This document shows, one piece after another, positions 1 through 13,743 of a stretch of 53,926 bases of DNA. The stretch lies in NCBI GenBank assembly GCA_964413865.1, contig CAYPUR010000003.1, positions 1 through 53,926 of the forward strand. The letters run 5' to 3'. The notes under the pieces were generated by a model, which saw only the letters and a program-made list of their open reading frames with translations, was not told where the DNA came from and did no database searches. Position numbers and translations under genes: made by a program. This DNA comes from an uncultured Verrucomicrobiota bacterium (GTDB lineage Bacteria > Verrucomicrobiota > Verrucomicrobiia > Limisphaerales > J093). Position 1 is the first letter of the stretch. Every line of letters starts with the position of its first letter.

Positions 1-53
1 GCCGGGTGCCCTCACCCGGCGTCAAGCCCCTGCACGCAAAATGAGAACTGCTG
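1..53. repeat. Repeat family A, partial copy cut by the window edge
   Basis: The reverse complement of 1-53 is identical by eye to 25896-25948 (cagcagttctcattttgcgtgcaggggcttgacgccgggtgagggcacccggc). It is close to 13494-13546. It contains the hairpin gccgggtg/cacccggc. Confidence 0.85.
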
Positions 54-99
54 GGATTTGTTTTGACCGGCGGGCGGGGCGATTGATAGCAATTGAATC

Positions 100-573
100 A
101 TGCGACACACCATTTCCGTGTTGGTCGAGAACAAGTTTGGCGTGCTGACGCGCGTGGCCGGTCTGTTTAGCGGACGCGGCTTCAACATCGACACGCTCAA
201 CGTTGCACCGACACAGGATTCGACCATGTCTCGCATGACGATCGTCACGCGGGGAAACGACGCGACGGTGGACCAGATCGTCAAGCAGCTCGAAAAGCTG
301 GTCGAGACCGTCAAGGTGCAGGACTTCCGGGAAGGCGAATTCGTCGATCGCGAGCTGGCCATGATCAAGGTGGGCGTCGACTCGAAGACGCGCGCCGAGG
401 TCATGCAGATCACCGACATCTTCAGGGCCAAGATCATCGACGTCCAGCCCAAGACGCTCACCATCGAGATCACGGGCGACGAGAGCAAGGTCGAGAAGTT
501 CATCGAGCTGATGAAGGCCTTCGGCATCCTCGAACTGACGCGGACGGGCAAGGTGGCTTTGCCCCGGAAATGA
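100..573 (+). CDS. ilvH: Acetolactate synthase small (regulatory) subunit
   Basis: ATG at 100. The 157-aa product has the ACT-domain N-terminus MRHTISVLVENKFGVLTRVAGLFSGRGFNIDTL typical of IlvH/IlvN. It lies directly upstream of ilvC. Confidence 0.9.
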   Translation: MRHTISVLVENKFGVLTRVAGLFSGRGFNIDTLNVAPTQDSTMSRMTIVTRGNDATVDQIVKQLEKLVETVKVQDFREGEFVDRELAMIKVGVDSKTRAEVMQITDIFRAKIIDVQPKTLTIEITGDESKVEKFIELMKAFGILELTRTGKVALPRK

Positions 574-763
574 GGCGGGATGGCGGGGCCGCGGGTACGG
601 CTTTCTATTTGACGCCTAGCGCCTCCTCCGGCGAACATCGGGTCTGGTTGGTTCGAATCCTGGCAACCGACACCCGGGTGGGAACAGGCGGATCGACAAA
701 GAGACAGAGACACAACCCGGTGTGGCTAAGCGAATGTCACACCACCATCACGGCATATCGACC

Positions 764-1864
764 ATGGCAACTATTGATTTCGGCGGCACACGGGAACAGG
801 TCATCACGCGCAAGGAATTCCCGATGGCCAAGGCGCGCAAGGTCCTCAAGAACGAGGTCATCGCCATCATCGGGTACGGCGTCCAGGGCCCGGCCCAATC
901 GCTCAACCTGCGCGACAACGGCTTCAATGTCATCGTCGGCCAGGCCAGCCAGTTCAAGCGCGACTGGGACCGCGCCATCCAGGACGGATGGAAACCGGGC
1001 AAGACGCTCTTCGAGATCGACGAGGCGGTCCGCCGGGCCACGATTGTCCAGTTCCTGGTCTCCGACGCCGCCCAGCGCGCCGTCTGGCCCGTCATCAAGG
1101 CCAACCTCAAACCGGGCGACGCCCTCTATTTCTCACACGGATTCTCGATTGCCTACAGGAAGCAGACCGGCGTCGTGCCTCCCGCCGACGTCGACGTCAT
1201 CATGGTCGCCCCGAAGGGATCCGGCACCTCGGTGCGCCGCAACTTCCTGACCGGCGCCGGCATCAACTCGAGCTTCGCCGTCGAGCAGGACGCCACTGGG
1301 CGCGCCGAGGAGCGCTGCCTGGCGATCGGGATCGGGATCGGATCGGGCTACCTCTTCCCCACCACGTTCGAACACGAGGTCTACAGCGACCTGACCGGCG
1401 AGCGCGGCGTGCTCATGGGCGCCCTGGCCGGCATCATGGAAGCCCAGTACGATGTGCTGCGCGCCAACGGCCACACGCCGAGCGAGGCCTTCAACGAAAC
1501 GGTCGAGGAACTGACCCAGAGCCTGATCCGGCTGGTCGACGAAAACGGCATGGACTGGATGTACTCGAACTGCTCGGCCACCGCCCAGCGGGGCGCGCTC
1601 GATTGGAAGCCGCGGTTCAGAAAGGCGGTCCTGCCGGTGTTCAAGGAGCTTTATCAGCGTGTCAAGACCGGCAAGGAATGCGCCCGAGTGCTCAAGGCGT
1701 GCGGCGCCCCCAATTACCAGGCCCAACTGCAGAAGGAACTGCGCGCCATTCGCGATTCCGAGATGTGGCAGGCCGGCGCCGCCGTGCGCGCTCTCCGGCC
1801 CAAGGAATCCGCCCGCGCCATCGCCAAAGGCACCAAGGGCATCTCGGGCCGCGCAGCCAATTGA
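764..1864 (+). CDS. ilvC: Ketol-acid reductoisomerase
   Basis: Rossmann motif VIAIIGYGVQGPAQSLNLRDNGFNV and the rest of the protein match KARI. The track start at 722 is GTG. In-frame ATGs occur at 734 and 764, and I chose 764 (MATIDFGG). Confidence 0.9.
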   Translation: MATIDFGGTREQVITRKEFPMAKARKVLKNEVIAIIGYGVQGPAQSLNLRDNGFNVIVGQASQFKRDWDRAIQDGWKPGKTLFEIDEAVRRATIVQFLVSDAAQRAVWPVIKANLKPGDALYFSHGFSIAYRKQTGVVPPADVDVIMVAPKGSGTSVRRNFLTGAGINSSFAVEQDATGRAEERCLAIGIGIGSGYLFPTTFEHEVYSDLTGERGVLMGALAGIMEAQYDVLRANGHTPSEAFNETVEELTQSLIRLVDENGMDWMYSNCSATAQRGALDWKPRFRKAVLPVFKELYQRVKTGKECARVLKACGAPNYQAQLQKELRAIRDSEMWQAGAAVRALRPKESARAIAKGTKGISGRAAN

Positions 1865-1872
1865 CACCGGTA

Positions 1873-1923
1873 CATTCCAACAAGACATTCCGTTGAGCGT
1901 TGAACGTTGAACGTTGAACGTTC
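1873..1923 (+). repeat. Left ~50-bp direct repeat of the island (includes heptamer array A, 1891-1923)
   Basis: cattccaacaagacattccgttgagcgttgaacgttgaacgttgaacgttc aligns by hand with 7543-7592 in the same orientation, with a few mismatches and one 1-nt gap. Confidence 0.8.
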
Positions 1924-1935
1924 TGAGTAAAACGT

Positions 1936-2144
1936 CGATGTTCCGGGGCGGTTGTTGCGCGGTTTGAATCGAGGGTTCAACGCTAAAACGGGGAGAGGAA
2001 ACGCTCAACGCTCAACGTTCAACGCTCAACGTTCAGAGCATGACGGCGATGTTCCGGGGCGGTTGTTGCGCCGTTTGAATCGAGGGTTCAACGCTGAAAA
2101 GGGGGAGAGGAAACGCTCAACGCTCAACCTTCAGAGTATGGCGG
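1936..2144. repeat. Two tandem units (~111 bp and ~98 bp), each ending in an inverted heptamer array (2000-2038 and 2112-2136)
   Basis: Both units begin cgatgttccggggcggttgttgcgcSgtttgaatcgagggttcaacgct...ggagaggaaacgctcaacgctcaac. Unit 2 lacks two heptamers. Confidence 0.85.
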
Positions 2145-2494
2145 CGCGCGGTGCGAAGGCTGGCGGCGAAGATGCGGATCAGTTCTTCCGTTTCGACAAG
2201 GACGTCGTCGAGCGCGGGAGGCGAGTCCACCAGAGGAACGCGCTGGGTGAGTCGCAGCCAGCGGCGAGATTCCTTCAGTTCTTTCAGACAGATGCTCAGT
2301 TTGTGGATGAAATCGTTGCGTGATTCAGCGGCTTGGGCTTCACCATGGTTCGGCAAGGCCGAAGTGCCAGAACGTAGCAACTGGCTGGCGACGTGATTTC
2401 CGGCTCGCGTTTGCGGCAGCCTCTCCGCCAGGCGTATGACCTGCGCCGCATAATCCAACAGCCGCTCTTCCAGGTCGTATTCCTTCGATGTCAT
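2117..2494 (-). CDS. Four-helix-bundle protein (23S rRNA IVS protein / Avd-like family)
   Basis: ATG at 2494, 125 aa. The segment SQLLRSGTSALPNHGEAQAAESRNDFIHKLSICLKELKESRRWLRL matches the four-helix-bundle (PF05635/TIGR02436-type) signature from memory. The last codons and stop lie inside a heptamer array. Confidence 0.85.
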   Translation of the reverse strand: MTSKEYDLEERLLDYAAQVIRLAERLPQTRAGNHVASQLLRSGTSALPNHGEAQAAESRNDFIHKLSICLKELKESRRWLRLTQRVPLVDSPPALDDVLVETEELIRIFAASLRTARRHTLKVER

Positions 2495-2550
2495 TTCTTC
2501 CTCCTTGCCGTGAACATGCCCAACCTCCGCTCCATTTTCAACCCAACCTT

Positions 2551-2622
2551 TGAGCGCTGAGCGTTAAACGTTGAGCGTTGAACGTTGAGCGCTGAGCGTT
2601 GAACGTTGAACGTTGAGCGTTC
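2551..2622 (+). repeat. Heptamer array D, ~10 units of TGARCGT
   Basis: Read directly: tgagcgc tgagcgt taaacgt tgagcgt tgaacgt tgagcgc tgagcgt tgaacgt tgaacgt tgagcgt tc. Confidence 0.9.
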
Positions 2623-2853
2623 TCGATGGATCTCGGTGCGAAGGCCGGCGCTGAAGCGCACGCACTTCAGATGGCTGAAAACTTTGATCCCGGCGACTGC
2701 CTCCGCCCCTCCCAACACCCGCATCGGCCCTGGCCGCCGCTTCCGGACAACGACAAGCCTCGCCGAAATTCCGCAAAATTCTCCGGCCGCTTCGCGGCTA
2801 AGAGAAAAGGGTAAAAGAGACAAAGAGCAAAGGATAACAACACAAGGAATCAC

Positions 2854-5800
2854 TCAGCGAACCAACCCACTCACCACCACACACCGAAACCCGAGGCACT
2901 GGTCGCGACCGTCGGGACGAACGTAGCCGCGAAACGAACACGACAGGGGCGAGGGATCGCCATCGACCCACGACCCGCCCCGCAACACGCGGAACTCCTT
3001 TCGCTTCTCGTCAGACCAGTTCGAGCACCACTCCCAGACATTGCCGCTCAGGTCCATGGCGCCGCAGTCCGCCTTGCCGCTCGGAAACAGACCCACCGCG
3101 CTCGTGTGCCCAAGGCCGGTCTGGCCGCAGTTGCAGTGCTGGGCGAAGTCGCCATCGTGCTCCGTGCCGCCCCAGGCAAAGTAGCGAGAACGGTCTTGTT
3201 TCTCCCCATCCCACTGAGCCGCCAGTTGCCACTCGTTCTCGTGGGGGAGACGGATTTCGAGGCTCCATTTCTCAGAGAGCCAACGGCAGAAGGCCACCGC
3301 CTCATACCAGCACACGCCAACGCGCGGATGGTTCGGTGTCTGAAAAACGGGGTCGTAATCCTCCGGCCCCTGCGCGTGCTGAGCCTCCCACCATTCCAGC
3401 ATCTCGGGTTCTTCCGCGGACGTCCAGGCCTTGGGGTGATGATAGCCATCCGGGGCCTTCACGAACGCCTCGAACTGCGCCACCGTGATCGGGTACTTGG
3501 CGATGAAGAACGCCCGCTTCTCCCCGTCCCGGACAAAGCCACGACCGAAATCCAGCGGCTTGTCGGCGGCTTGCTCGCCTCTGGGTCCGCACCAGACGAT
3601 GTTGGGCAGACCGTTGTCTTGCCCCACCCCTGGCGGCTGGTCCTCGAGCCATCCCCGAGCCGAAGCGGCTTCGGAGCGTTGGCCGATTTGTAGATCCCGC
3701 TGGCGGACAAGTCCATCCAATCGTTCGCGGATGACCTTGAGCTCCGCCTGGCCCTTGGCGGAGCGCTTGACGTCGTTAAGGCCGATCTCGCGAACGATCT
3801 GGCTGGCGAGCGAGGCCCGGCGCACGGAGGCAGAGTGCGAGGGTGCCGGCTCCGTGCAGAGCGAGACAGCGAGGCTACGAGCCAGGAGTGGCGAGTTGTT
3901 TTCATGGGCCTGGTAACCAGCGGCCAATCGGACCACCTCTTCCCAGTAGCCGCCGTCGTCGGTGATCAATCCAGCCGCGGACTCGAAGTCGAAGTGCTCG
4001 GCATCACAAACGTGCACGGCGGCCATGAACTCTTGGAGTTTGAAGGCCATGCCGAACTGGTGCCGGCCCTGAGCCACGAGCAGTCCCGCTCGGTGCTCGA
4101 TGAGGTGAATCACGTCTTTGGCCCAGTCCTCGCGTCTCTTAGCCGGCCACTTGTCGTGGGGTGGCAGTCCCGCCAGCGCATCGGCCAGGTCTTGTTCCGG
4201 AATGTAGATCGACGTTCCCTGGCGGTCGTCCGGAAGGCCTTTGAAGTCGCCCCGGTGGGCTCTGAACGCGAGTCTGCTCAGTTCGTTCTTGAACGCGAGA
4301 TCGCTCGTTTCGGCCTCCTTGAGCAAGTCTGGCAGGCCCTGCTTTGCCGGGCCTTGGGCGTCCCGTTCCTTGGTGGCCTCCCAGGCGAAGAGCAGCTCCT
4401 GGACGAAGAGCGCAAAGAGTTTAGCCCGTTTTTCGGGCAACTCGGCCCGGAGATGCAACTGGGCCATCAACGAGAGGAGATAGGGCGTGCGGGCCATCTC
4501 GTGTAGTTCCTCACGCTCGATGACCGCTTGGGTGAGGGAGTTCACGCGCTGAGAGGGAACATCGCGCCCCCGCGCCAGCAGTTCGGCATAGAAGCGCCCG
4601 ATGAACTCTCGAATTTTCTCGTCGTCCAGTCGTTCGATCTCAGCCTTCTGAAACCCGGGCACTTGCCACGCCTCATCCTGGTAAGAGACAGTGCGGCAAG
4701 TGACCACAAACCGGGTGCGTTCGAACGGCGGCGCGGTAAAGGCGGCCACCGTGTCGACCACGAACCGCTTCAATTCGTCCGGCACTTCGTCCAAGCCATC
4801 CAGGAAGACGATCGCCTGGCCGGCCTCGAGGGCTGCCTTTAAGGCTTGAGCCGCGCTTGGCCGGATGAGGGGAGGGAGTTGGCTCTCGATGAAATGCCAC
4901 ACGCGGTCGCCATCGACTCGGGCGAGGTTCGACTCGGGCGACTGGGCCAATTGATCGGCGAACTTCCGCAACTCGACGAAGACGGGAACCAGATGATTGA
5001 GGTCGCGGGGCCAGGCGAACTTCAACAGCTTGTCGCCACGGCGATAGCTGACTTCCAGGTGCTTCAGCCAGCCGGCAGCAGGTTCGAGGGCGTGCTGGGC
5101 CAGACAGAGGGCGAGGTGTTTCAGGAACGTCGACTTGCCCGAACCGGGCAAGCCCAGCACAGCGAGGCGCTTCTCAGTCGCCAACCGTTTGAGCATTGGC
5201 TCGGCGTCCGGCTCCAGTCTGCCACCACCCACCAAAAGATGGGGTTTGGCGTCGAGCGGGATGTAGACTTTCGCCAACCGAGGCGGCAGGCAGGGCTTGC
5301 CTGAGGAATCGGCGGTCGGCAGACAGCGCAGGCTGGCCTCCCCAATTTCGCAAAACAAGTGAGCCAGGTGGCGGCGGTAACCCTCGAGGGCCTGCGGAGA
5401 GGGTCGTGTCAAAGCTGCGGGAGACTTGGCTTGCCGTCGCCGATTCGGCTTGCGCACGCCCCCGGTTGCCTGGGGCGGCGGCGATCCCAGGAGCCAGGGG
5501 TGGCCGCGGTAGAACCGGGTGGGTTCGTTCTTGTCGGGCACCTCGATCTGGGTGGTGCCGTATTCTTCCGCCGACGCTGTTGGGAGAGCCTGCCAGGTTT
5601 GAGGGCAGATCATCGTTCCCCCGGGCGCGGCGCCAGCCCGGAGGCGGGCGGCCAGATCGGCACCGGTGGCGGCAAAGGACTTTCCATCGTCGAGGAAAGT
5701 AATCTCGCCGGAGGCGATACCGAATCGGAATAGAAAAGCCTGGTGCTCTTCGCGTCTGAGGTTCAGCCGGCGGCACTCCTCGTGCACCGCAACGGCGAAG

Positions 5801-6132
5801 CGATGCGCCTGGACCGCCTGTCGGACGGGAAAGCAGAAGCCGTCCCCGTGGTCCTGTTTCAGGTCGAGGACCGCCTCCCGGATGCGCGCCGCGCGCGCGC
5901 CGACACGCAGGACCTCAAACAACCATTCGCGAATCGATCGCTCGGCGTCGAGCGCGTCGGGCAAAAGACCCCGCAACTTCCGCTGCCGTCCGGTCGAGTC
6001 GGTGAGGTCATAGTTGATGATGAAGCCGGTGAACCGCGACGGCAGGGCGGCGGGGCTGACCGCACGAGCCGCTCTCGCCGGCTTCGGAGGGCGGCGCGAA
6101 GACAGGCCGCTGGATTTGTCATTCCGCTTCAT
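2854..6132 (-). CDS. Class III nucleotidyl cyclase-like domain + NACHT (STAND) NTPase + C-terminal FGE-sulfatase/C-type-lectin-fold domain
   Basis: Cyclase motifs are collinear: FIINYDLTDSTG, HGDGFCF, FRFGIASGEITF, ATGADLAARL (roughly nt 5503-6039). Walker A is GLPGSGKST and Walker B is IVFLDGLDEV. The C-terminal 253 aa (about 2857-3615) contain GVCWYEAVAFCRWL, NVWEWC, RVLRGGSW and GFRCV. The track start at 6222 is TTG; the first ATG is at 6132. Confidence 0.85.
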   Translation of the reverse strand: MKRNDKSSGLSSRRPPKPARAARAVSPAALPSRFTGFIINYDLTDSTGRQRKLRGLLPDALDAERSIREWLFEVLRVGARAARIREAVLDLKQDHGDGFCFPVRQAVQAHRFAVAVHEECRRLNLRREEHQAFLFRFGIASGEITFLDDGKSFAATGADLAARLRAGAAPGGTMICPQTWQALPTASAEEYGTTQIEVPDKNEPTRFYRGHPWLLGSPPPQATGGVRKPNRRRQAKSPAALTRPSPQALEGYRRHLAHLFCEIGEASLRCLPTADSSGKPCLPPRLAKVYIPLDAKPHLLVGGGRLEPDAEPMLKRLATEKRLAVLGLPGSGKSTFLKHLALCLAQHALEPAAGWLKHLEVSYRRGDKLLKFAWPRDLNHLVPVFVELRKFADQLAQSPESNLARVDGDRVWHFIESQLPPLIRPSAAQALKAALEAGQAIVFLDGLDEVPDELKRFVVDTVAAFTAPPFERTRFVVTCRTVSYQDEAWQVPGFQKAEIERLDDEKIREFIGRFYAELLARGRDVPSQRVNSLTQAVIEREELHEMARTPYLLSLMAQLHLRAELPEKRAKLFALFVQELLFAWEATKERDAQGPAKQGLPDLLKEAETSDLAFKNELSRLAFRAHRGDFKGLPDDRQGTSIYIPEQDLADALAGLPPHDKWPAKRREDWAKDVIHLIEHRAGLLVAQGRHQFGMAFKLQEFMAAVHVCDAEHFDFESAAGLITDDGGYWEEVVRLAAGYQAHENNSPLLARSLAVSLCTEPAPSHSASVRRASLASQIVREIGLNDVKRSAKGQAELKVIRERLDGLVRQRDLQIGQRSEAASARGWLEDQPPGVGQDNGLPNIVWCGPRGEQAADKPLDFGRGFVRDGEKRAFFIAKYPITVAQFEAFVKAPDGYHHPKAWTSAEEPEMLEWWEAQHAQGPEDYDPVFQTPNHPRVGVCWYEAVAFCRWLSEKWSLEIRLPHENEWQLAAQWDGEKQDRSRYFAWGGTEHDGDFAQHCNCGQTGLGHTSAVGLFPSGKADCGAMDLSGNVWEWCSNWSDEKRKEFRVLRGGSWVDGDPSPLSCSFRGYVRPDGRDQCLGFRCVVVSGLVR

Positions 6133-6291
6133 AGCGTGAGTGTGGGTGCGAGTGCGGATTGGCCGATGGGCGGGTTTGGTCGGGTGAGACTGCTCGGGTC
6201 TAGCGAGGCGCGCCTCAGACAAAAGCCAGTCCTCGTTTTCATGAGTAGTTCCCGTGTTTTCCGGCCCCTCTCTCCCGCGCCTCGCTCCTTA

Positions 6292-6361
6292 GAATCCTTG
6301 ACCCTTGAACGCAGCACAAAAACTTGACTTGTGTTTAACACGTTTCACCGGTCAAGGATTC
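6292..6361. promoter_or_regulatory. 12-bp perfect inverted repeat (gaatccttgacc / ggtcaaggattc) with a 46-nt AT-richer spacer
   Basis: The arms are 6292-6303 and 6350-6361. The right arm overlaps the stop codon of the CNB gene (6352-6354). The spacer contains the palindrome gtgtt-t-aacac (6331-6341). On the minus strand, aaggag follows the hairpin. Confidence 0.35.
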
Positions 6362-7389
6362 TCGAGATTCGGCGGCGGCTGGGCTTGGGGCTGGGTCCGT
6401 CGGCGATCGCGCAGGTCAGCTTTGAGCCGATAATGCCGCAACTCCGTTTCCAGTTGGATCAGCCGGTGCAGGATGACCGTGGTTTGCTCGACCGCCACAT
6501 GAGTGTTGGTGAACTGCGTCTCCTCGCGCAGTTTGGCCTTCTGCTCGGCCCGCACCTCGGAAACGAGAATGAGGATCGTCATGACGATGGCCTGGAGACT
6601 GACAAACATCGTAAGGCCATCGATGGTGGGCAGATCTTTCAACAGTTTGGGGCCATTGAATCCCAGCCAAACGGCCCAGAGGAGGAGGTTAGCCAGGGTG
6701 AACCAGAGCGAAGTCGAGACCTGTCTCGCCCAGTCGCAGAGGACCTGCCAGAGCGTTTTTTGGCATTCCGCCTGGGCGTCGCGGTCCTCCGGCCGGACGA
6801 GGCCGTCGCGTCGCACCGTCTTGGCCAGATGATCGGTGTGCCAGCGGAGCCGGTCGGCTACCTGGCGCAGGACCGCGAGGGCGGCGTCGGGGAATTGGCG
6901 CAACGTGTCCAGGAACGGCTCTCGAGGTACCACCAGGAGGCTGCAACCTTTGGGTGTAAAGGCTGTGGCCGTGCGCGTGCCGTTCTCGGCCAGGCAGGCC
7001 AATTCGCCGAAGAACTCGCCGGGTTCCCGTGTGTCCACCACCGCGTCCCTGGTGTTCTTCATCAACTTGTCGCGCAGGGGGTCTTTCGGCACGCTGGGGT
7101 GTGTGGGGATGATCAATTCCACACTGCCTTCGAGCACGATGAAAAACTCCTCACCCACGGAGTTGCGCTCGAAGATACTCGTCGCGGCCCCGAAGTCCCG
7201 GATGAAGACCTCCCGCGCGAGATGATCGAGGGCGGCCGTTGGAAGCTCACGAAAGAGGGTCGAGTCCTTGAGGTGGCGTTTGATCTCCGCCGGTGGAACA
7301 GGGATGCTCATCGGGAAGATTCTGAAAGAGCAATCGGACATAGGCAAGTCGCCAGTGTGGGCTGGAGAAACAGCATTGCGTCGGCCCAT
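6352..7389 (-). CDS. Cyclic-nucleotide-binding domain protein with C-terminal two-TM (DUF1003-like) module
   Basis: CNB signature FFGELACLAENGTRTATAFT. The C-terminus has two hydrophobic helices (WFTLANLLLWAVWLGF, GLTMFVSLQAIVMTILILV) followed by a charged coiled tail. In-frame ATG candidates are at 7389, 7341 and 7311. Confidence 0.8.
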   Translation of the reverse strand: MGRRNAVSPAHTGDLPMSDCSFRIFPMSIPVPPAEIKRHLKDSTLFRELPTAALDHLAREVFIRDFGAATSIFERNSVGEEFFIVLEGSVELIIPTHPSVPKDPLRDKLMKNTRDAVVDTREPGEFFGELACLAENGTRTATAFTPKGCSLLVVPREPFLDTLRQFPDAALAVLRQVADRLRWHTDHLAKTVRRDGLVRPEDRDAQAECQKTLWQVLCDWARQVSTSLWFTLANLLLWAVWLGFNGPKLLKDLPTIDGLTMFVSLQAIVMTILILVSEVRAEQKAKLREETQFTNTHVAVEQTTVILHRLIQLETELRHYRLKADLRDRRRTQPQAQPPPNLENP

Positions 7390-7542
7390 CGCCGATGCGG
7401 CGTGGAGGTTGGCGCAGTTATCACCAGATGCAGCGGGCGAGTATCAGGGTCCAACACCAGGATTTGACTCCGCCGGTCGAGGCTTTACCATACCGCCCGT
7501 GTGTCGAGGGTGTCGCGGCTCGCAGCCAACCGACACCCAGCG

Positions 7543-7592
7543 CATTCAACAAATCGTTCCGTTGAACGTTGAACGTTGAGCGTTGTACGTTC
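7543..7592 (+). repeat. Right ~50-bp direct repeat of the island (includes heptamer array E, 7559-7592)
   Basis: cattcaacaaatcgttccgttgaacgttgaacgttgagcgttgtacgttc is a direct-orientation match to 1873-1923. Confidence 0.8.
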
Positions 7593-7664
7593 GGTTCCAT
7601 CTGACTTGTGCATTGTGACTATGGCTATTCGAGGGGCGCATCGCGCGCCAGGTTCTTTCGTTCT

Positions 7665-9791
7665 ATGAGCCGCGTTCTCGCGACGGGTGTCGGGGCGCTC
7701 AGCCTCGCCTCGAGCCTGGCCGCGTCCGACGCGCCGGACGCCGGGCCGCTGGCGTCCGAGTGGACAGGCCCGCACGGGGGCCTGCCGCCGTTCGACCAGG
7801 TGCAGGCGGCGCATTTCAAACCGGCCTTCGAGACCGCGATCGGGGCCTATCGGGCCGAGATTCGACAGATTGCCGGCCAGGCCGCTCCGGCCGGTTTCGA
7901 CAACACGATTGCGGCGATCGAGAAGGCGGGGCGCACCCTGGACCGGGTCGAGGCCGTTTACGGCGTCTGGGGCTCGACGATGAGCACGCCGGAGTTCCGG
8001 TCCATCGAGCAGGAGCTCGAGCCGAAGCTGGCGGCGTTGCGCGATGAGGTCTATCAGAACGAGGCGCTCTTCAAGCGCATCGAGGCCGTCTACCAGTCGC
8101 CCGACAAGGCCCGGCTGACGCCCGAACAGCAGCGCCTTGTCTGGCTGCACCACACGGAGTTCGTCCGAGCCGGCGCGCGGCTCGACGCCGCCGGCAAGGC
8201 GCGCGTCGCGGCCATCAACCAGCGCCTTGCGACCCTGTACACCACGTTCAGTCAGAATCTCCTCGCCGACGAGGAAGGGTACGCCACGGTGATCGCGGAT
8301 GCGGCCGGCCTGGCCGGGCTGCCGGAGTCGTTCCGCGCGGCGGCGGCGGCCGAGGCGGAGGCGCGCGGGCAGAAGGGCCAGTGGGTGATCGCAAACACCC
8401 GATCGAGCGTCGAGCCGTTCCTGACCTACTCGACGCAGCGCGAGCTGCGCGAGCAGGTTTGGCGCAACTTCGTCAGCCGGGGCGATCATCCCGGCGCGCA
8501 CGACAACAAGCCCTTGATCTCAGAAATCCTCGGGCTCCGGGCCGAGCGGGCGCGGCTGCTTGGCTACGCGACCCACGCCCATTGGCGGCTCGAGAACTCG
8601 ATGGCCCGGACCCCCGAGCGGGCGATGGAGCTGATGGAAGCGGTCTGGAAGCCGGCGCTGGCCCGGGTGCGCGAGGAGGTCGCCGACATGCAGGCGATCG
8701 CCGATGCCGAATCCGCGGAAATCCGGATTGCGCCTTGGGACTACCGCTTCTACGCCGAGAAGGTTCGCAAGGCCAAGTACGACCTCGACGAGAACGAGGT
8801 GAAACCGTACCTGCAGCTCGGCAAGCTCCGCGAGGCCATGTTCTGGGCGGGCGGCCAGATCTATGGGCTGGTTTTCACGCCCGCGCCCGACGTCCCGGTG
8901 TATCATGGCGAGGTTCGTGTCTGGGAGGTTCGAGGCGCCGACGGACGCCACGTCGGGCTGTTCTATTTCGATCCGTATGCGCGGACGGGGAAGCGGTCGG
9001 GGGCCTGGATGAACGCGTATCGGAGCCAGGAACGGTTCGAGCGTCCGATCACGACGCTGGTCTCGAACAACTCGAATTTCATGAAAGGAGGGGCGGGCGA
9101 GCCTGTTCTGGTGTCCTGGGAGGATGCCAAGACCCTTTTCCACGAGTTCGGTCACGCGCTGCACGGCCTGTGTTCGGATGTGACCTACCCGTCGCTGTCG
9201 GGCACGCGCGTGCCGCGCGATTACGTCGAGCTGCCGTCGCAGATCAACGAGCGCTGGCTGGCGACGCCCGAGGTGCTCAACCGGTTCGCGCTCCACTCGA
9301 AGACCGGAGAGCCGATGCCGGCGGCGCTGGCCGGGCGCATCCAGAAGGCCTCGAAGTTCAACCAGGGGTTCGCCACGACCGAGTTCCTGGCCAGCGGCCT
9401 GATCGACATGAAACTGCACCTGGCCGGCGAGCGGGCGATCGACCCGGCGGCATTCGAGCGCGATGAACTCGAGCAGCTCGGCATGCCTTCCGAGATCGTC
9501 ATGCGCCATCGCATGCCCCAATTCGCCCATATCTTCGCCGGCGAAGGCTACTCCGCCGGCTACTACAGCTATCTCTGGGCCGACACGCTGACCGCCGATG
9601 CGGCGGAGGCGTTCCTCGAAGCCGGCGGCCTCTACGACAAGTCCGTCGCCGCGCGATTCAAACGCCACGTGCTCTCCGCGGGCAACACGGTCGAGCCGGC
9701 CGAGGCTTACCGGCAGTTCCGCGGGCGCGACGCCGGCATCGCGGCGCTCATGCGCGATCGGGGATTTCCGGTGCCTGCCGGGGCGAAGTGA
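7665..9791 (+). CDS. dcp: M3-family peptidyl-dipeptidase (Dcp-like), secreted
   Basis: Zinc motif HEFGHALH and M3 architecture throughout. ATG 7665 gives the signal-like N-terminus [20 protein letters not shown]. Confidence 0.85.
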
Positions 9792-9814
9792 CGCGCCGGG
9801 CCTTCGATCGCATT

Positions 9815-11137
9815 ATGAAACGCACTGACCACAAGACGGAACTCGCGGACCAGGCGCACCGCGATGCACCGGAAGACGCGGACGCCGTTCCAGACACCGC
9901 CACCGCCGAAAGCCGGCAGGGGGTCAAGTCCGTCCGAAGCCCCTCGAACCACGTTCCGCGCCTGCTCGAGAAGACGCGCGCGTTCCGCAATGCGGACGAG
10001 GTGCGCGGCCTGGGCCTTTATCCGTATTTCCGGACTATATCCTCGGCGCAGGACACCGAGGTCATCATCGGCGGGCGCAAGGTGCTGATGCTGGGATCCA
10101 ACAGCTACCTGGGATTGACCAACCACCCGAAGATCAAGGAAGCCGCCAAGGCGGCGGTCGACAAGTACGGGGGCGGTTGTGCCGGGTCGCGGTTCCTCAA
10201 TGGGACGCTGGACATCCATCTCGAACTCGAGGAGGCGCTGGCGCGGCTGGTGCAAAAGGAGGAGGTGCTGCTCTACAGCACCGGGTTCCAGGTCAACCTC
10301 GGGGTCATCAGCTCGCTGGTTGGCAAAGGGGAGTATGTGCTCGCCGACAAGAGCGATCACGCGAGCATCGTGGAAGGCTGCCTCCTGTGCCAGGGCAAGT
10401 TTGTCCGCTTCGCTCACAAGGACATGGCGGCGCTCGAGAACCGGCTTCAGATGATCGAGCGCGAGGCCGGCAAGCTGATTGTGGTCGACGGCGTGTTCAG
10501 CATGGAGGGCGACATCATCCAGCTTCCCGAGCTGTGCAAGGTGGCGAGGGAGTACGGGACCGTGATCATGGTGGACGACGCCCATGCCATCGGCGTGCTC
10601 GGGGATCGGGGGGCGGGCACGGCGAACCACTTCGGTCTGACCGACGAGGTGCACCTCATCATGGGGACGTTCAGCAAATCGCTCGCCAGCCTGGGCGGGT
10701 TCATCGCCTCCGACAAGGCCACGATCGATTACCTCAAACACCACTCGAAGCCGCTGATCTTCAGCGCCAGCATGAGCCCGGCAAACGTCGCCGCCGTGCT
10801 CGCCGCCCTCAAGATCATGACCGGCGAGCCGGAGCGCATCCAGCGGCTCTGGCACAACACCGACCGCATGAAGCAGGGCCTGCTGGCGCTCGGTTTTGAC
10901 CTTGGGGCATCGCAGACGCCGATCCTGCCGGTGTACGTGCGGGATCTGCTGACGACATTCAAGTTCTGCAGACAGCTCGAAGAGCAGGGCGTGTTCGTCA
11001 ACCCGGTCGTGTCGCCCGGCGTGCCGCCAGGCCAGGAACTGCTGCGCATCAGCCTCATGGCCACCCACACCGACAACCAGATCGATTTCGCCCTCGAAAT
11101 GATGGGCCGGGTTGGACGCGAGCTCGGTGTGATTTGA
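9815..11137 (+). CDS. Alpha-oxoamine synthase family PLP enzyme, serine palmitoyltransferase-like
   Basis: Motifs [28 protein letters not shown] and PLP-lysine motif [13 protein letters not shown] (the GTFSKS form is typical of Spt-like members). The alternative GTG 9788 overlaps the dcp stop. Confidence 0.8.
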
Positions 11138-11147
11138 GCCGCTGCCC

Positions 11148-12143
11148 ATGAAAGTGCTGCTGACTGGCGGCAACGGTTTCGTCGGCAGCCATATCCTGGA
11201 TGCGCTCTGCGCCCGGGACATTCCCGCGGTCCTCCTGGCGCGGCCAACCAGCAATCTGTGGTTCATCCGGGATCATCTGCCACGCGTCGAAGTGCGCCGC
11301 GGATCCGTGACCGATCCGGCCAGCCTGCGCGAGGCCCTGTCCGGCATCACACATGTCATCCACTGCGCCGGAACGACCAAGGCGCTGCGCCTCTCGGACT
11401 TCGATGCCGTCAACCGGGTCGGCACCGCCCACCTCGTGGACGCCCTCGACGCCCAAGCCGGCCAAATCCGGCGCCTCGTTCTGGTCTCGAGCCTGGCGGC
11501 CTGCGGCCCGGGCACCGCCCAAGCCCCCGCGCGCGAGACTGACACGCCGCACCCGGTTTCCGAATACGGACGCAGCAAGCTGGCAGCGGAACGCGAGGTG
11601 ACGGAACGTTGCCGCGTCGGGTGCACCATTCTGCGTCCGCCGGCCGTGTATGGCCCTCGGGATGGAGAGTTCCTGCGGCTGTATCGGACCGTGCAGCGCG
11701 GCTGGGCGCCTGCGATCGCGGGAGGGGGGCAGCCGCTGAGTCTGGTGTACGGTCCGGATCTGGCGTTGGCGGCGGTCGCTTGCCTGGATCACCCCGCGGC
11801 GGCAGGAAAGGTCTTTCACGTCGCCGGCGCCGAGGTGGCGACGGGAATGCAGGTGACCGACTTGATCGCGCGCGCATTGGGGTGCCGCGTGAAGCAGGTG
11901 CCCATTCCGGGCTGCCTCGTGCGTTTGGTTTGCGCCGCCGCCACTATGGGGGCGCGGCTCTCGGGACGGGCCAGCCTGCTGGCGCATGACAAGCACCGGG
12001 AGCTCCTGGCCGCGGGATGGGTGTGCGACGCGGGCCGTCTGCATCGGGAGTTGGGGGTGCGCTGTCCCACGCCGCTGTCCGCGGGCGCGGTCTCGACGCT
12101 GGCCTGGTATCGCGAACACCGGTGGCTGGCCTGGGATTCTTGA
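11148..12143 (+). CDS. NAD-dependent epimerase/dehydratase (extended SDR) family protein
   Basis: N-terminal Rossmann motif MKVLLTGGNGFVGSHI. It is 331 aa with ATG at 11148. Confidence 0.8.
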   Translation: MKVLLTGGNGFVGSHILDALCARDIPAVLLARPTSNLWFIRDHLPRVEVRRGSVTDPASLREALSGITHVIHCAGTTKALRLSDFDAVNRVGTAHLVDALDAQAGQIRRLVLVSSLAACGPGTAQAPARETDTPHPVSEYGRSKLAAEREVTERCRVGCTILRPPAVYGPRDGEFLRLYRTVQRGWAPAIAGGGQPLSLVYGPDLALAAVACLDHPAAAGKVFHVAGAEVATGMQVTDLIARALGCRVKQVPIPGCLVRLVCAAATMGARLSGRASLLAHDKHRELLAAGWVCDAGRLHRELGVRCPTPLSAGAVSTLAWYREHRWLAWDS

Positions 12144-13069
12144 AACCCTACGTTTTCATCGACTATGCGACCCAAGGGTACATCGCCCTTGTGGGTGTTC
12201 TGATTCTGCTGTTTCACAACCAGACCGTGCCATGCTGGCCGTGCCTCGTGGCGGTTCACGCGGCCTGCCTGGTCCTGGTGCATCTCCTCATCCAGTCGCA
12301 CGCCCGGTGGCGGTCCAACCGGTTCCTTGACTTCCTGCGGCATTTCTATCCGGTCCTGCTCTACACTGGATTCTATCGGGAGACGGGGATGCTCAACCAC
12401 ATGTTCGCGGGCGACTACCTGGATGTCCACTTCATCCGCCTCGAGGAAAGTCTCTTCGGCCTGCAGCCCTGCCTCTGGCTGATGGACACCTTCCCCTGCC
12501 TCGCGGTGAGCGAAGTGCTCTATGCCTCCTACTTCTCCTATTACATTATGATCTTCGGCGTGGGGCTTGCCCTCTTCGTCCGCCAGCGCCGGCAGTTCCA
12601 CCACTATGTGTCCGTGGTGTCGTTTGTCTTCTACCTTTGCTACCTGACCTACATCTGCCTTCCGGTCATGGGGCCGCGCGCCTTCTTCCGCGAGATCGAC
12701 GGGTTCCGGCTGCCCGATGCGATCCAGGCATCCGCGGGCCCGTTGGCGTACCCGGACGCCGTGACGCACGGCGTCTTCTTCAACATCATGGCCTGGATCT
12801 ACCGGAACTTCGAGAGCCCCGGCGCCGCCTTCCCGAGCAGCCACGTCGCGATCGCTCTCTGCACGGTCTGGTTCTCATTCCGCTACCTGCCGCGCATTCG
12901 ATGGCTGCATCTGGTTGTGGGGCTCCTCCTGTGTCTTTCAACCGTCTATTGCCGCTATCACTACGTGGTCGATGTCGTCGCCGGCGCCCTCACCGTCGCC
13001 ATCCTCCTCCCCCTGGCCAATCGCCTCTACCATCGGTTTCAAGCGCGCGAGGAAGCGATCGGCGAGTGA
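12140..13069 (+). CDS. PAP2-superfamily membrane protein (IPC/sphingomyelin-synthase-like PAP2_C type)
   Basis: Multi-TM protein with AFPSSHV and CRYHYVVDVVAG (H-H-D type catalytic motifs). The proposed TTG start at 12140 overlaps the SDR stop (TTGA). The start is uncertain. Confidence 0.65.
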   Translation: MKPYVFIDYATQGYIALVGVLILLFHNQTVPCWPCLVAVHAACLVLVHLLIQSHARWRSNRFLDFLRHFYPVLLYTGFYRETGMLNHMFAGDYLDVHFIRLEESLFGLQPCLWLMDTFPCLAVSEVLYASYFSYYIMIFGVGLALFVRQRRQFHHYVSVVSFVFYLCYLTYICLPVMGPRAFFREIDGFRLPDAIQASAGPLAYPDAVTHGVFFNIMAWIYRNFESPGAAFPSSHVAIALCTVWFSFRYLPRIRWLHLVVGLLLCLSTVYCRYHYVVDVVAGALTVAILLPLANRLYHRFQAREEAIGE

Positions 13070-13143
13070 GGCCCGCGGATGGGGGCCTCCAGCGCGCCCG
13101 TCTCGATCGCTGCATGCGTTTGAACCCGGGCCTCGCGCCCGCC

Positions 13144-13380: not shown

Positions 13381-13493
13381 ATTGTGTATGGGCCAAACAT
13401 GGCCGACAAAACTCGACTCACTGACTGCCGATTCTGATCGTGGCTGAGTCTAGACGCGAGAACCGTCCGGGTCAAGGCGGCCCTCCCTGCTCC

Positions 13494-13657: not shown

Positions 13658-13743
13658 CCGCGCGGCTGGCGGTTGGCCTTTTCACCTTGATCGCCTCATG
13701 GAGAGGCAACATCCTTCGCATCTCTGAGATGCGAGGCGAACAC

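What the first reader, a model, noticed from the sequence alone, without database searches (positions are those of the whole stretch)
2854..7389. Candidate STAND-gated cyclic-nucleotide defence pair: cyclase-NACHT-FGE/lectin fusion plus cNMP-binding 2-TM partner
Seen in sequence: two co-directional minus-strand genes sit in an accessory island. The 1092-aa protein fuses three parts. The first is an N-terminal domain collinear with every core motif of class III nucleotidyl cyclases, with both metal aspartates apparently present (YDLTDST and HGDGF, then FRFGIASGE and ATGADLAARL). The second is a NACHT P-loop (GLPGSGKST / IVFLDGLDEV). The third is a C-terminal FGE-sulfatase/C-type-lectin-fold domain. 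The gene just upstream encodes a CNB domain (FFGELA...RTATA) fused to two TM helices. Established knowledge: Pycsar and CBASS pair a nucleotide cyclase with an effector that binds the product, and Pycsar effectors are CNB domains fused to TM helices. Bacterial NACHT/STAND proteins are anti-phage sensors with N-terminal effectors and C-terminal sensors. Cyclase-STAND fusions exist in actinobacteria, but there they carry HTH outputs. Inference: ligand sensing by the lectin-like domain could drive NACHT oligomerisation and activate the cyclase, whose cNMP would open or disrupt the membrane through the CNB-TM protein. To my knowledge this wiring is not a described system.
Basis: partly seen in the sequence, partly recalled or inferred. 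Interest (0 to 1): 0.85.

Follow-up and report, generated by a model that had tools for sequence, protein, structure and literature searches.

The report
NACHT-gated cyclase with cNMP-binding membrane partner
Two neighbouring genes in a probable Verrucomicrobiota genome look like an immune alarm circuit, in which a NACHT receptor protein carries its own cyclic-nucleotide-making domain and the adjacent membrane protein carries the matching cyclic-nucleotide-binding domain; the same pairing recurs in six other loci, but no function has been tested.

Summary
Window 2854-6132(-) encodes a 1092-aa protein with three parts: a class III cyclase-like domain, a NACHT domain and an FGE-sulfatase-like (FGS) domain. 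Window 6352-7311(-) encodes a cNMP-binding domain fused to DUF1003.

The cyclase domain gets no Pfam hit on its own. Three results still place it with class III cyclases:
- An exhaustive HMMER search found 195 relatives.
- A 7-sequence profile without canonical cyclases hits solved adenylyl cyclases at E 4e-7.
- An AlphaFold model (pLDDT 93.6) matches Ma1120 adenylyl cyclase (TM 0.74/0.82).

Both metal aspartates and the transition-state arginine are present. The ribose asparagine is Asp, and the base-specifying residues are non-canonical.

The decisive evidence is gene order. In seven distinct loci, a CNB-DUF1003 gene lies immediately 5' of a gene carrying this cyclase domain. The partner module varies: fused or separate NACHT-FGS, kinase plus AAA_16, or MoxR-like ATPase plus an FGS protein. 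The closest NACHT-FGS relatives lack both the cyclase and the CNB gene.

The most likely function is a Pycsar-like cNMP defence circuit with a STAND sensor. Cyclase-NACHT and NACHT-FGS architectures are already catalogued (Kibby 2022, Chakravarti 2026). I found no description of the DUF1003 receptor or of the conserved cyclase-receptor cassette. It is a new variant of a known kind, and its function is untested.

The parts
2854..6132 (-). Gene A: 1092-aa cyclase-NACHT-FGS protein (ATG at 6132; the open frame extends to a TTG at 6222)
   Evidence: ORF list. Identical to P0001, 1092 aa. The N-terminus is homologous to that of P0132.
5488..6042 (-). Class III nucleotidyl-cyclase-like domain, aa 31-215. 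Metal Asp42 and Asp97 and Arg163 are present. Asp159 sits at the Asn position and Gln93 at the Lys position.
   Evidence: Exhaustive phmmer, 195 relatives. Profiles hit solved cyclases at E 5e-27 and E 4e-7. AF2 pLDDT 93.6. Foldseek top hit Ma1120, TM 0.74/0.82, E 2e-9. Conservation; coordinates.
5167..5487 (-). Linker plus pre-NACHT helical segment (YRRHLAHLF... PPRLAKVYIPLD). The segment is shared with relatives that lack the cyclase.
   Evidence: Aligned by eye with the N-termini of P0002-P0006. The 68% query coverage of all NACHT-FGS relatives begins here.
4591..5166 (-). NACHT NTPase domain: Walker A GLPGSGKST (nt 5128-5154) and Walker B IVFLDGLDEV (nt 4783-4812)
   Evidence: Pfam PF05729, 29.3 bits against a cut-off of 26.7, residues 353-544 of the 1122-aa ORF. 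Motif coordinates.
2878..3537 (-). C-terminal FGE-sulfatase / C-type-lectin-fold (FGS) domain, non-catalytic type; presumed ligand sensor
   Evidence: Pfam PF03781, E 4.7e-42. The best solved relative is SUMF2/pFGE 1y4j. Over the stretch where I recall FGE's catalytic Cys pair to lie (own knowledge), neither the query nor SUMF2 has two cysteines.
6133..6351 (-). 219-nt spacer between the two genes. It holds no predicted terminator or Rfam element.
6352..7311 (-). Gene B: 319-aa CNB-DUF1003 protein (the open frame extends to an ATG at 7389, 345 aa)
   Evidence: ORF list. Database call P0121 is 319 aa.
6895..7200 (-). Cyclic-nucleotide-binding domain with an intact phosphate-binding cassette (FGELA ... 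RTATA)
   Evidence: Pfam PF00027, E 8.6e-14. A profile hits PKA, PKG and CRP CNB domains. G, F-G-E, R and A are invariant across 9 homologues.
6436..6702 (-). DUF1003 module: two hydrophobic helices (aa 201-218 and 232-250 of the 319-aa protein) plus a C-terminal helical tail. Presumed membrane effector.
   Evidence: Pfam PF06210, 28.9 bits against a cut-off of 27.4. Hydropathy; coordinates.
2542..2623 (.). (CGTTGAA/CGTTGAG)n heptamer array at the 3' edge of the pair
   Evidence: These arrays occur nowhere else in the 54-kb window except around this insert.
7547..7592 (.). Heptamer array at the 5' edge of the pair. It is 87% identical over 46 nt to the copy at 1878-1923.

Best explanation
The two genes form a cyclic-mononucleotide alarm circuit of the Pycsar type, with an explicit STAND receptor acting as the trigger.

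Shown by computation:
- Gene A fuses a class III cyclase homologue that keeps its metal-binding and transition-state residues to a NACHT NTPase and a non-catalytic FGE-sulfatase/lectin-fold domain.
- Gene B fuses a CNB domain with an intact phosphate-binding cassette to a two-helix DUF1003 membrane module.
- The cyclase domain and CNB-DUF1003 travel together as a cassette across seven loci, while the NTPase and sensor part is exchanged.

Inferred steps:
1. The FGS domain binds a ligand, most likely a phage or other invader molecule.
2. The NACHT module oligomerises on NTP.
3. Oligomerisation brings the N-terminal cyclase domains together. Class III cyclases are active only as head-to-tail dimers with active sites at the interface (established knowledge), so induced proximity switches synthesis on.
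4. The 3',5'-cNMP, whose base is unknown, binds the CNB domain of gene B.
5. The DUF1003 module then perturbs the membrane by pore formation or depolarisation, giving growth arrest or abortive infection.
For: Cyclase identity:
- 195 relatives at E <= 1e-3 in an exhaustive search of 1.84 billion proteins. Of 103 scanned, 26 match Pfam Guanylate_cyc.
- A 7-sequence profile with no canonical cyclase hits 3mr7 and Ma1120 at E 4e-7. The 33-sequence profile gives E 5e-27.
- AF2 model pLDDT 93.6, pTM 0.89. The top 50 Foldseek PDB hits are all class III adenylyl or guanylyl cyclases or cyclase domains (one an engineered phytochrome-cyclase fusion); the best is 4wp8, TM 0.74/0.82.
- Asp42 is invariant in the 31- and 33-sequence alignments. 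Across the 103-sequence alignment the columns corresponding to Asp42, Gly96-Asp97 and Arg163 are at least 90% conserved.

Functional link between the two genes. CNB-DUF1003 lies immediately 5' and co-directional in all of these loci:
- the window;
- L009-12: CNB | stand-alone cyclase P0132 (56% identical) | start of a NACHT-like gene, with overlapping stop and start codons;
- L013-16: CNB | cyclase-X P0133 | NACHT-FGS, 1040 aa;
- L008: CNB | cyclase-X;
- L002/3: CNB | cyclase-protein kinase, followed by an AAA_16 gene in the longest contig of this set (5,190 nt, ENA ERZ1426525; gene table only, no DNA held);
- the P0135 locus: CNB | cyclase-X | AAA_5;
- L098-100: CNB | cyclase-X | AAA_5 | FGS protein.
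All of these except the P0135 locus (gene table only, no DNA held) were re-detected with my own HMMs.

Fission and fusion of the same modules is classic Rosetta-stone evidence. L013's NACHT-FGS is barely alignable to ours, so the association is not simply inherited.

The cyclase and the CNB gene are present or absent together. The closest NACHT-FGS relatives, P0002-4 (57-66% identical), lack the cyclase. P0002 and P0003, the two whose neighbourhoods were looked up, have no CNB gene beside them.

Immune character:
- The NACHT-FGS family swaps its N-terminal domains: TIR, HNH, DUF4062, trypsin, PNP_UDP, metallophosphatase.
- Relatives of the cyclase domain carry TIR, EAD1, EAD7, NB-ARC, NACHT, TPR and FGS.
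- L013 sits among relaxase, primase and transposase genes.
- L102 has four tandem NACHT-FGS paralogues.
- The literature places STAND-fused cNMP cyclases in an 'immune clade' (10.64898/2026.08.12.744502) and FGS among NACHT antigen-receptor-type sensors (10.1101/2022.07.19.500537).

The FGS domain is closest to the solved SUMF2/pFGE structure, and no cysteine pair is seen in the aligned C-terminal stretch of either protein, which fits binding rather than catalysis.
Against: - No experiment exists for any member.
- The query's cyclase domain alone misses Pfam Guanylate_cyc, even at E <= 1.
- The ribose-orienting Asn is Asp159, and the base-specifying positions are non-canonical.
- Within the CNB-linked subclade some members have lost a catalytic residue. 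P0135 has GEE for GDG, the L002 protein has ADN for GDG, and the L008 protein and P0139 lack the Arg in register. Activity is therefore not guaranteed across the clade.
- The window locus is not in a defence island; its flanks are ilvH, ilvC, an M3 peptidase, an aminotransferase, an epimerase and PAP2.
- PADLOC recognises neither protein as part of a known system. The only hits are to the CNB part of PycTIR models.
- More distant CNB-DUF1003 proteins (23-29% identical) occur without any cyclase neighbour, next to ABC transporters or in Myxococcota genomes. The architecture also has non-cassette uses.
- A 219-nt spacer separates the two genes here, and co-transcription is not shown.
- The system is rare: no close relative among 185,579 GTDB species representatives, in the JGI metagenome scan or in IMG/VR.
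Confidence: 0.6

Rival explanations
1. This is a physiological, non-immune cNMP signalling module. The FGS domain senses an endogenous or environmental ligand, the NACHT-gated cyclase makes cAMP or cGMP, and CNB-DUF1003 is a cNMP-regulated membrane protein (a channel or transport regulator) that adjusts physiology rather than killing the cell.
For: - Housekeeping flanks and no neighbouring defence genes.
- Distant CNB-DUF1003 proteins sit beside ABC-transporter operons, conserved over several contigs.
- Generic CNB proteins next to canonical cyclases are common in Gammaproteobacteria such as Halioglobus.
- The top structural matches are ordinary adenylyl cyclases, not PycC.
- There are no PADLOC system hits.
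Against: - The distribution is sporadic and rare.
- The sensor and NTPase part is shuffled around a constant cassette.
- The NACHT-FGS family exchanges TIR, HNH, trypsin and PNPase N-domains.
- One locus has a mobile-element context.
- The nearest cyclase relatives carry EAD and TIR domains.
Confidence: 0.22
2. The cyclase-like domain is catalytically dead in this protein. It serves as a nucleotide-binding or oligomerisation adaptor, and CNB-DUF1003 responds to the host's own cAMP or cGMP pool.
For: - Asn to Asp at position 159, and non-canonical base-specifying residues.
- No direct Pfam hit.
- Some subclade members have lost GDG or the Arg.
- Kaur et al. 2020 (PMC7159879) note that several cNMP cyclase domains fused to the vWA component of conflict systems are catalytically inactive.
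Against: - In this protein both metal Asp residues and the Arg are intact. Asp42 is invariant in the 31- and 33-sequence alignments, and the corresponding columns are at least 90% conserved in the 103-sequence alignment.
- Strict adjacency to a receptor whose phosphate-binding cassette is invariant is hard to explain if no ligand is made locally.
- Asn substitutions in class III cyclases lower the rate but do not abolish it (own knowledge).
Confidence: 0.13
3. The adjacency is fortuitous: two unrelated accessory genes happened to land in the same insert.
For: A 219-nt spacer separates the genes and no operon evidence exists.
Against: Seven distinct loci share the same order and orientation, at 40-69% identity for the CNB gene and 27-59% for the cyclase domain, often with a 10-50-nt gap or overlapping codons.
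Confidence: 0.03

Closest known systems
Pycsar / Pucsar (PycC or PucC cyclase plus a cNMP-binding TM or TIR effector)
   Same: The logic is the same: a class III-fold mononucleotide cyclase sits next to a gene whose product joins a CNB domain to a membrane module. In Pycsar and Pucsar the outcome is abortive infection (PMC11224242; bioRxiv 10.64898/2026.08.12.744502).
   Different: - The cyclase is not of the PycC/PucC clade. It gets no PADLOC PycC hit, and none of the 50 best structural matches is described as a Pycsar cyclase; they are adenylyl and guanylyl cyclases.
- The cyclase is covalently joined to a NACHT-FGS receptor, so the trigger is explicit.
- The effector is an N-terminal CNB domain plus a C-terminal 2-TM DUF1003. 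It is not the 3-TM pJV1-spdB3-type PycTM/PucTM.
- The gene order is effector first.
Bacterial NACHT (bNACHT) / STAND antiphage receptors with N-terminal effector and C-terminal FGS sensor (Kibby et al., bioRxiv 10.1101/2022.07.19.500537; PMC13581612)
   Same: - Tripartite architecture of effector, NACHT and sensor.
- An FGS 'antigen-receptor-type' C-terminus.
- Family-wide swapping of N-terminal effectors.
- cNMP cyclase is one of the N-terminal domains catalogued there.
   Different: - The N-terminal domain is a signal generator, not a direct killer, so a second protein is needed.
- That second protein (CNB-DUF1003) and its conserved linkage are not described in those papers.
- I found no report that a cyclase-NACHT protein has been tested.
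'Immune clade 1' cNMP cyclases fused to NACHT or AP-ATPase (Chakravarti et al. 2026, bioRxiv 10.64898/2026.08.12.744502)
   Same: This is probably the same broad clade. The cyclase's nearest relatives carry NACHT, NB-ARC, EAD, TIR and TPR domains.
   Different: The preprint names the clade but leaves it uncharacterised. Its text does not mention a DUF1003 receptor. I could not check its tree or accession table.
VMAP-MoxR-vWA ternary conflict systems with an N-terminal cNMP cyclase and an FGS domain (Kaur et al. 2020, PMC7159879)
   Same: Relatives L098-100 and the P0135 locus have cyclase-X followed by an AAA_5 / MoxR-like ATPase, and in L098-100 by a large FGS-ending protein. This resembles that system.
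   Different: The window locus has no MoxR or vWA gene and uses NACHT instead. The CNB-DUF1003 gene is an addition that is not described there.

Membership tests
Class III nucleotidyl cyclase (CHD, Pfam PF00211) | Matches PF00211 at the gathering threshold | tested here: not met
   No hit even at E <= 1 for the query. 26 of its 103 nearest relatives do match.
Class III nucleotidyl cyclase (CHD, Pfam PF00211) | Profile-level homology to solved class III cyclases | tested here: met
   A 7-sequence profile without canonical cyclases gives E 3.7e-7 to 3mr7 and about 5e-7 to Ma1120. The 33-sequence profile gives E 5.3e-27.
Class III nucleotidyl cyclase (CHD, Pfam PF00211) | Cyclase homology domain fold | tested here: met
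   AF2 pLDDT 93.6. The 50 best Foldseek PDB hits are all class III cyclases or cyclase domains; 4wp8_B has TM 0.74/0.82 and E 2e-9.
Class III nucleotidyl cyclase (CHD, Pfam PF00211) | Two metal-binding aspartates | tested here: met
   Asp42 (YDL) and Asp97 (GDG). Asp42 is invariant in the 31- and 33-sequence alignments, and both are at least 90% conserved in the 103-sequence alignment.
Class III nucleotidyl cyclase (CHD, Pfam PF00211) | Transition-state Asn...Arg pair | tested here: inconclusive
   Arg163 is present and at least 90% conserved. The Asn position is Asp159 in the query and mostly Ala or Gly in the immune-type relatives.
Class III nucleotidyl cyclase (CHD, Pfam PF00211) | Base-specifying Lys/Asp (ATP) or Glu/Cys-type (GTP) residues | tested here: not met
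   Gln93 aligns with the Lys position. Lys151, Ser152 or Gly150 align with the Asp position, depending on gap placement. The substrate cannot be predicted.
Class III nucleotidyl cyclase (CHD, Pfam PF00211) | cNMP synthesis | not testable with these tools
   Needs an enzyme assay or LC-MS.
Pycsar / Pucsar | Cyclase of the PycC/PucC clade | tested here: not met
   No PADLOC PycC hit for gene A. The preprint 10.64898/2026.08.12.744502 places STAND-fused cyclases in a separate clade.
Pycsar / Pucsar | Adjacent effector combining a CNB domain with a TM or TIR module | tested here: met
   cNMP_binding plus DUF1003 with two hydrophobic helices.
Pycsar / Pucsar | TM effector of the PycTM/PucTM (3-TM pJV1-spdB3) family | tested here: not met
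   PADLOC hits cover only the CNB part of PycTIR-type models, and there is no PycTM hit. The architecture is CNB at the N-terminus and 2 TM at the C-terminus.
Pycsar / Pucsar | Phage defence by abortive infection | not testable with these tools
   Needs a phage challenge.
Bacterial NACHT STAND receptors | NACHT NTPase with Walker A and Walker B | tested here: met
   PF05729, 29.3 bits against 26.7. GLPGSGKST and IVFLDGLDEV are present.
Bacterial NACHT STAND receptors | N-terminal effector, NACHT, C-terminal sensor, with effector swapping among relatives | tested here: met
   Relatives carry TIR, HNH, DUF4062, trypsin, PNP_UDP or metallophosphatase domains, or only a short tail.
Bacterial NACHT STAND receptors | Antiphage activity | not testable with these tools
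   No experiment. NCBIfam antiphage_EruA gives only a partial 23.8-bit hit against a cut-off of 1000.
Formylglycine-generating enzyme (catalytic FGE/SUMF1) | FGE-sulfatase fold | tested here: met
   PF03781, E 4.7e-42.
Formylglycine-generating enzyme (catalytic FGE/SUMF1) | Catalytic cysteine pair | tested here: not met
   The best solved relative is SUMF2/pFGE, which I recall to be the inactive paralogue (own knowledge). Over the C-terminal stretch where I recall the FGE Cys pair to lie, the query reads GGSWVDGDPSPLSCSF and carries a single Cys.
DGR-diversified FGS/C-type-lectin target | Template repeat matching the 3' variable region, plus a reverse transcriptase nearby | tested here: not met
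   Sensitive blastn of 2854-3500 against the whole window finds no repeat. Pfam was run only on seven flanking ORFs up to 14547 and showed no reverse transcriptase. The 23S_rRNA_IVP four-helix-bundle gene at 2117-2494 is the only hint.
VMAP-MoxR-vWA ternary system | MoxR ATPase and vWA genes beside the cyclase-bearing gene | tested here: not met
   The window flanks hold none. The relatives L098-100 and the P0135 locus do have an AAA_5 / MoxR-like gene.

The most novel reading that the evidence does not exclude
The cyclase domain and CNB-DUF1003 form a portable, previously undescribed 'signal plus receptor' output cassette. It plugs into at least three unrelated NTPase and sensor chassis: NACHT-FGS, protein kinase plus an AAA_16 ATPase, and MoxR-like ATPase plus an FGS protein.

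This would make DUF1003 a new class of cNMP-gated membrane effector. It would also give the first Pycsar-like pathway whose trigger is an identifiable pattern-recognition receptor. The nucleotide could be non-canonical, given the unusual base-specifying residues.
Probability: 0.45. Interest if true: 0.75.

Novelty: new variant of a known kind. Interest (0 to 1): 0.62.

Why it matters
As far as I know, how the cyclase senses infection in Pycsar-type systems is poorly understood. Here the cyclase is hard-wired, or in relatives genetically linked, to a STAND receptor with a lectin-fold sensor. Ligand, switch, messenger and effector can therefore each be mutated and assayed separately.

The finding would also assign a first function to DUF1003, as a cNMP-gated membrane effector. 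It would show that second-messenger output cassettes are exchanged between STAND and MoxR-type immune chassis. And it would give experimental access to the uncharacterised 'immune clade 1' of cNMP cyclases.

Tried and rejected
- **Word-index search, N-domain alone.** The homology search with the N-domain alone returned nothing, not even the self-match. The exhaustive HMMER search was needed instead.
- **Single-sequence AF2.** The model was useless (pLDDT 35.5). It was redone with an alignment.
- **First alignment for structure prediction.** It was rebuilt without them.
- **GTDB genome scan with the CNB-DUF1003 alignment.** The search pattern fell on the generic phosphate-binding cassette. Only relatives at 37% identity or less came back, and the full-length CNB-DUF1003 matches were 26-30% identical. 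Cyclases near those loci are ordinary signalling cyclases. The organism range and a presence/absence survey could therefore not be obtained.
- **Metagenome scan with the cyclase subclade.** The first attempt had no usable pattern. The second found one unrelated response-regulator cyclase.
- **IMG/VR scan.** No hit.
- **Island presence/absence in near-identical strains, via the exact IlvH protein.** All contigs were under 2.2 kb and ended inside ilvC, so they were uninformative.
- **DGR hypothesis.** It was prompted by an Avd-family four-helix-bundle gene lying next to an FGS gene. It is rejected for this window because there is no TR/VR pair.
- **Rfam and promoter/terminator scans.** The Rfam scan (1-14000) found no match and the promoter/terminator scan (1800-7700) found nothing above shuffle expectation.
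- **Catalytic FGE reading of the C-terminal domain.** Rejected.

Full report
**What is there**

The finding's coordinates match two co-directional minus-strand ORFs. Gene A is 2854..6132(-), 1092 aa from the ATG; the open frame runs on to a TTG at 6222. It is identical to database protein P0001. Gene B is 6352..7311(-), 319 aa from M27; the open frame runs on to 7389.

Pfam gives these hits:
- Gene A: NACHT (29.3 bits against a cut-off of 26.7) and FGE-sulfatase (E 4.7e-42).
- Gene B: cNMP_binding (E 8.6e-14) and DUF1003 (28.9 bits against 27.4).

The first 340 residues of gene A have no hit in Pfam, NCBIfam or PADLOC.

**Is the N-domain a cyclase?**

Alone against PDB sequences it gives only weak hits, to the class III cyclases 5d0g (E 0.005) and 3mr7 (E 0.03). 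A word-index search found nothing.

An exhaustive phmmer search of 1.84 billion representatives found 195 proteins at E <= 1e-3. In an alignment of 33 domain segments, the first metal Asp is invariant. GDG, FRxG and AxR are at least 90% conserved.

Of 103 full-length relatives, 26 match Pfam Guanylate_cyc. The others carry TIR, TPR, AAA_16, protein kinase, EAD1, EAD7, NB-ARC, NACHT and FGE-sulfatase domains.

A profile of only the seven closest members, none a canonical cyclase, hits solved adenylyl cyclases at E 4e-7. The wider profile reaches E 5e-27.

With the alignment, AlphaFold2 gives pLDDT 93.6 and pTM 0.89. The single-sequence run had given 35.5. The 50 best Foldseek matches in the PDB are all class III adenylyl or guanylyl cyclases or cyclase domains, one of them an engineered phytochrome-cyclase fusion. 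The best is Ma1120 (4wp8_B, TM 0.74/0.82, E 2e-9).

Homology and fold are therefore settled. Catalytic competence is only likely:
- Asp42, Asp97 and Arg163 are present.
- The ribose-orienting Asn is Asp159.
- The adenine- or guanine-specifying positions are Gln93 and Lys151/Ser152.
- A few subclade members have lost GDG or the Arg.

**What are the other domains?**

All 120 listed relatives of the NACHT-FGS part cover only about 42-71% of the query, that is, everything except the cyclase domain. The closest relatives, P0002-P0004 (57-66% identical), have only a 55-aa tail in its place. Other relatives carry TIR, HNH, DUF4062, trypsin, PNP_UDP or metallophosphatase domains there. This is the effector-swapping pattern of bacterial NACHT immune receptors.

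The C-terminal domain is closest to the solved structure of SUMF2/pFGE. I recall SUMF2 to be the catalytically inactive paralogue of FGE (own knowledge). The query has only one cysteine in the stretch where FGE's catalytic pair should lie. It is therefore an FGS-type binding domain rather than an enzyme.

Gene B's CNB domain is a bona fide PKA/PKG/CRP-type domain. Its phosphate-binding cassette is invariant across homologues. It is followed by two hydrophobic helices and a helical tail.

**The decisive evidence: gene order**

Close homologues of gene B are rare: 11 clusters in 5.8 billion proteins. Every one on a contig long enough to show the next gene is followed by a gene that begins with the same cyclase domain. 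The converse holds as well: each close cyclase relative with enough upstream sequence is preceded by a CNB-DUF1003 gene. The loci are:
- **L002/L003 (with two further ENA contigs).** CNB-DUF1003 | cyclase-protein kinase (580 aa in the complete copies), followed by an AAA_16 ATPase gene (639 aa) in the longest ENA contig, for which only the gene table is held.
- **L008.** CNB-DUF1003 | cyclase-X.
- **L009-12.** CNB-DUF1003 | a stand-alone 277-aa cyclase (P0132, 56% identical) | a gene that starts like a NACHT protein. Stop and start codons overlap.
- **L013-16.** CNB-DUF1003 | cyclase-X (P0133) | a separate 1040-aa NACHT-FGS protein, among relaxase, primase and transposase genes.
- **P0135 locus.** CNB-DUF1003 | cyclase-X | AAA_5 ATPase.
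- **L098-100.** CNB-DUF1003 | cyclase-X | AAA_5 / MoxR-like ATPase | a 976-aa FGS protein.

My own HMMs re-found each pair for which DNA is held; the P0135 locus is known only from its gene table.

L013's NACHT-FGS is barely alignable to ours. The association is therefore modular rather than inherited as a block. The window's close NACHT-FGS relatives P0002 and P0003 have no CNB gene beside them.

The conserved unit is thus cyclase plus CNB-DUF1003. The NTPase and sensor part is interchangeable, and in the window it is fused to the cyclase.

More distant CNB-DUF1003 proteins (23-29% identical) have no cyclase neighbour. The architecture therefore also exists outside the cassette.

**Mechanism**

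Shown by computation: the domain identities, the conserved catalytic and ligand-binding residues, and the conserved linkage.

Inferred: ligand binding by FGS drives NACHT oligomerisation. This brings the N-terminal cyclase domains into the head-to-tail dimer that class III cyclases need for activity (established knowledge). The resulting cNMP binds gene B. The DUF1003 module then perturbs the membrane, by analogy with the Pycsar and Pucsar TM effectors (PMC11224242; bioRxiv 10.64898/2026.08.12.744502). I put this whole chain at 0.6.

Rivals and their weights:
- Non-immune cNMP signalling: 0.22.
- A dead cyclase acting as an adaptor: 0.13.
- Chance adjacency: 0.03.

**Context in the window**

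The flanks are housekeeping genes: ilvH, ilvC, an M3 peptidase, an aminotransferase, an epimerase and PAP2. The aminotransferase clusters at 90% identity or more with Verrucomicrobiota MAG proteins.

The insert spans about 1865-7607 and has GC 0.62 against 0.657 for the rest of the window. Besides genes A and B it holds a four-helix-bundle (23S_rRNA_IVP) gene at 2117-2494(-). It is bracketed by (CGTTGAA)n heptamer arrays that occur nowhere else in the 54 kb.

There is no other defence gene nearby and no DGR template repeat. No Rfam element or convincing terminator was found in the parts of the window scanned.

**Comparison with what is known**

Kibby et al. (bioRxiv 10.1101/2022.07.19.500537) list cNMP cyclases among the N-terminal effectors of bacterial NACHT proteins. 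They list FGS as an antigen-receptor-type C-terminus and cNMPBD among the adaptors.

Chakravarti et al. (bioRxiv 10.64898/2026.08.12.744502) define an uncharacterised 'immune clade 1' of cNMP cyclases fused to NACHT or AP-ATPase.

Kaur et al. 2020 (PMC7159879) describe cNMP cyclase and FGS domains in MoxR-vWA ternary systems.

None of these texts, nor a full-text search for DUF1003 with 'cyclic nucleotide', describes a CNB-DUF1003 receptor or the conserved cassette. The window pair also fails membership of Pycsar proper. Its cyclase is not of the PycC clade, and its effector is not of the 3-TM PycTM/PucTM family.

**Verdict**

It is a new variant of a known kind: a Pycsar-like circuit gated by a STAND receptor, with a new type of receptor-effector. 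It is rare and wholly untested. Interest 0.62.

Noticed in passing
window 1878-1923, 1989-2038, 2097-2133, 2542-2623, 7547-7592: Arrays of the heptamer CGTTGAA/CGTTGAG occur only around this insert in the whole 54-kb window (17 matches against 0 expected). They bracket the four-helix-bundle gene and the gene pair. The outer copies, 1878-1923 and 7547-7592, are 87% identical direct repeats 5.7 kb apart. Short-read contigs carrying the identical IlvH or gene A protein are only 1.4-3.7 kb long (L001, L104-109); this would fit assembly breaks at a genome-wide repeat, but that was not checked.
   Followed up: partly
window 2117-2494 (-): A 125-aa four-helix-bundle protein (PF05635 23S_rRNA_IVP, TIGR02436) lies directly downstream of the FGS-ending gene. 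To my knowledge this is the same Pfam family as the DGR accessory protein Avd. No template/variable repeat pair exists in the window. Pfam on the flanking ORFs up to 14547 showed no reverse transcriptase, but the rest of the window was not scanned for one. It may be a DGR remnant or unrelated.
   Followed up: partly
L009 2170-2400; L102 7880-8130: In split relatives, the C-terminal tail of the upstream effector and the N-terminal tail of the NACHT protein share a motif of about 25 aa, rich in G, Q and N. In L009 the pair is ISIQVNKLIRGQITGEQHTTGDINN and VSNKVGSVSRGQVVGTQTAKTINN. In L102 it is HITMNIGQVSGQVIGKQIIKGGQTN and VRINIRKAIGPVTGTKVVEGNEIN. In both cases 0 of 500 shuffles reach the observed score. 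This is the gene-pair signature of NLR-associated amyloid signalling motifs (bioRxiv 10.1101/2020.01.06.895854). In L009 the motif would couple a cyclase to a NACHT protein. In the window, the covalent fusion replaces it.
   Followed up: partly
L102 1-10980: Four NACHT-FGS paralogues lie in tandem, and the last (P0002) is preceded by a small protein of unknown function. This resembles an expanded immune-receptor array in the closest cyclase-less relatives.
   Followed up: no
L002 15-383 (-); L099 147-1219 (-): A conserved gene of 122-190 aa with no Pfam hit lies upstream of CNB-DUF1003 in the opposite orientation in several cassette loci. In L098-100 and the P0135 locus it is accompanied by a GerE-type HTH gene. 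It is absent from the window. It could be a regulator of the cassette.
   Followed up: no
L098-L100 and the P0135 locus: Here the cassette is followed by an AAA_5 / MoxR-like ATPase and, in L098-100, a large FGS-ending protein. The layout resembles the VMAP-MoxR-vWA ternary systems of Kaur et al. 2020, although Pfam did not detect a vWA domain.
   Followed up: partly
L040-L065 (GTDB loci, for example Halioglobus): Generic CNB-domain proteins in many Gammaproteobacteria sit beside canonical class III cyclases on the opposite strand. These are ordinary cAMP modules. They were picked up only because the scan pattern fell on the phosphate-binding cassette.
   Followed up: no
window 9788-11137 (+): The flanking class I/II aminotransferase clusters at 90% identity or more with proteins named from Verrucomicrobiota MAGs. 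The window therefore probably comes from that phylum.
   Followed up: partly
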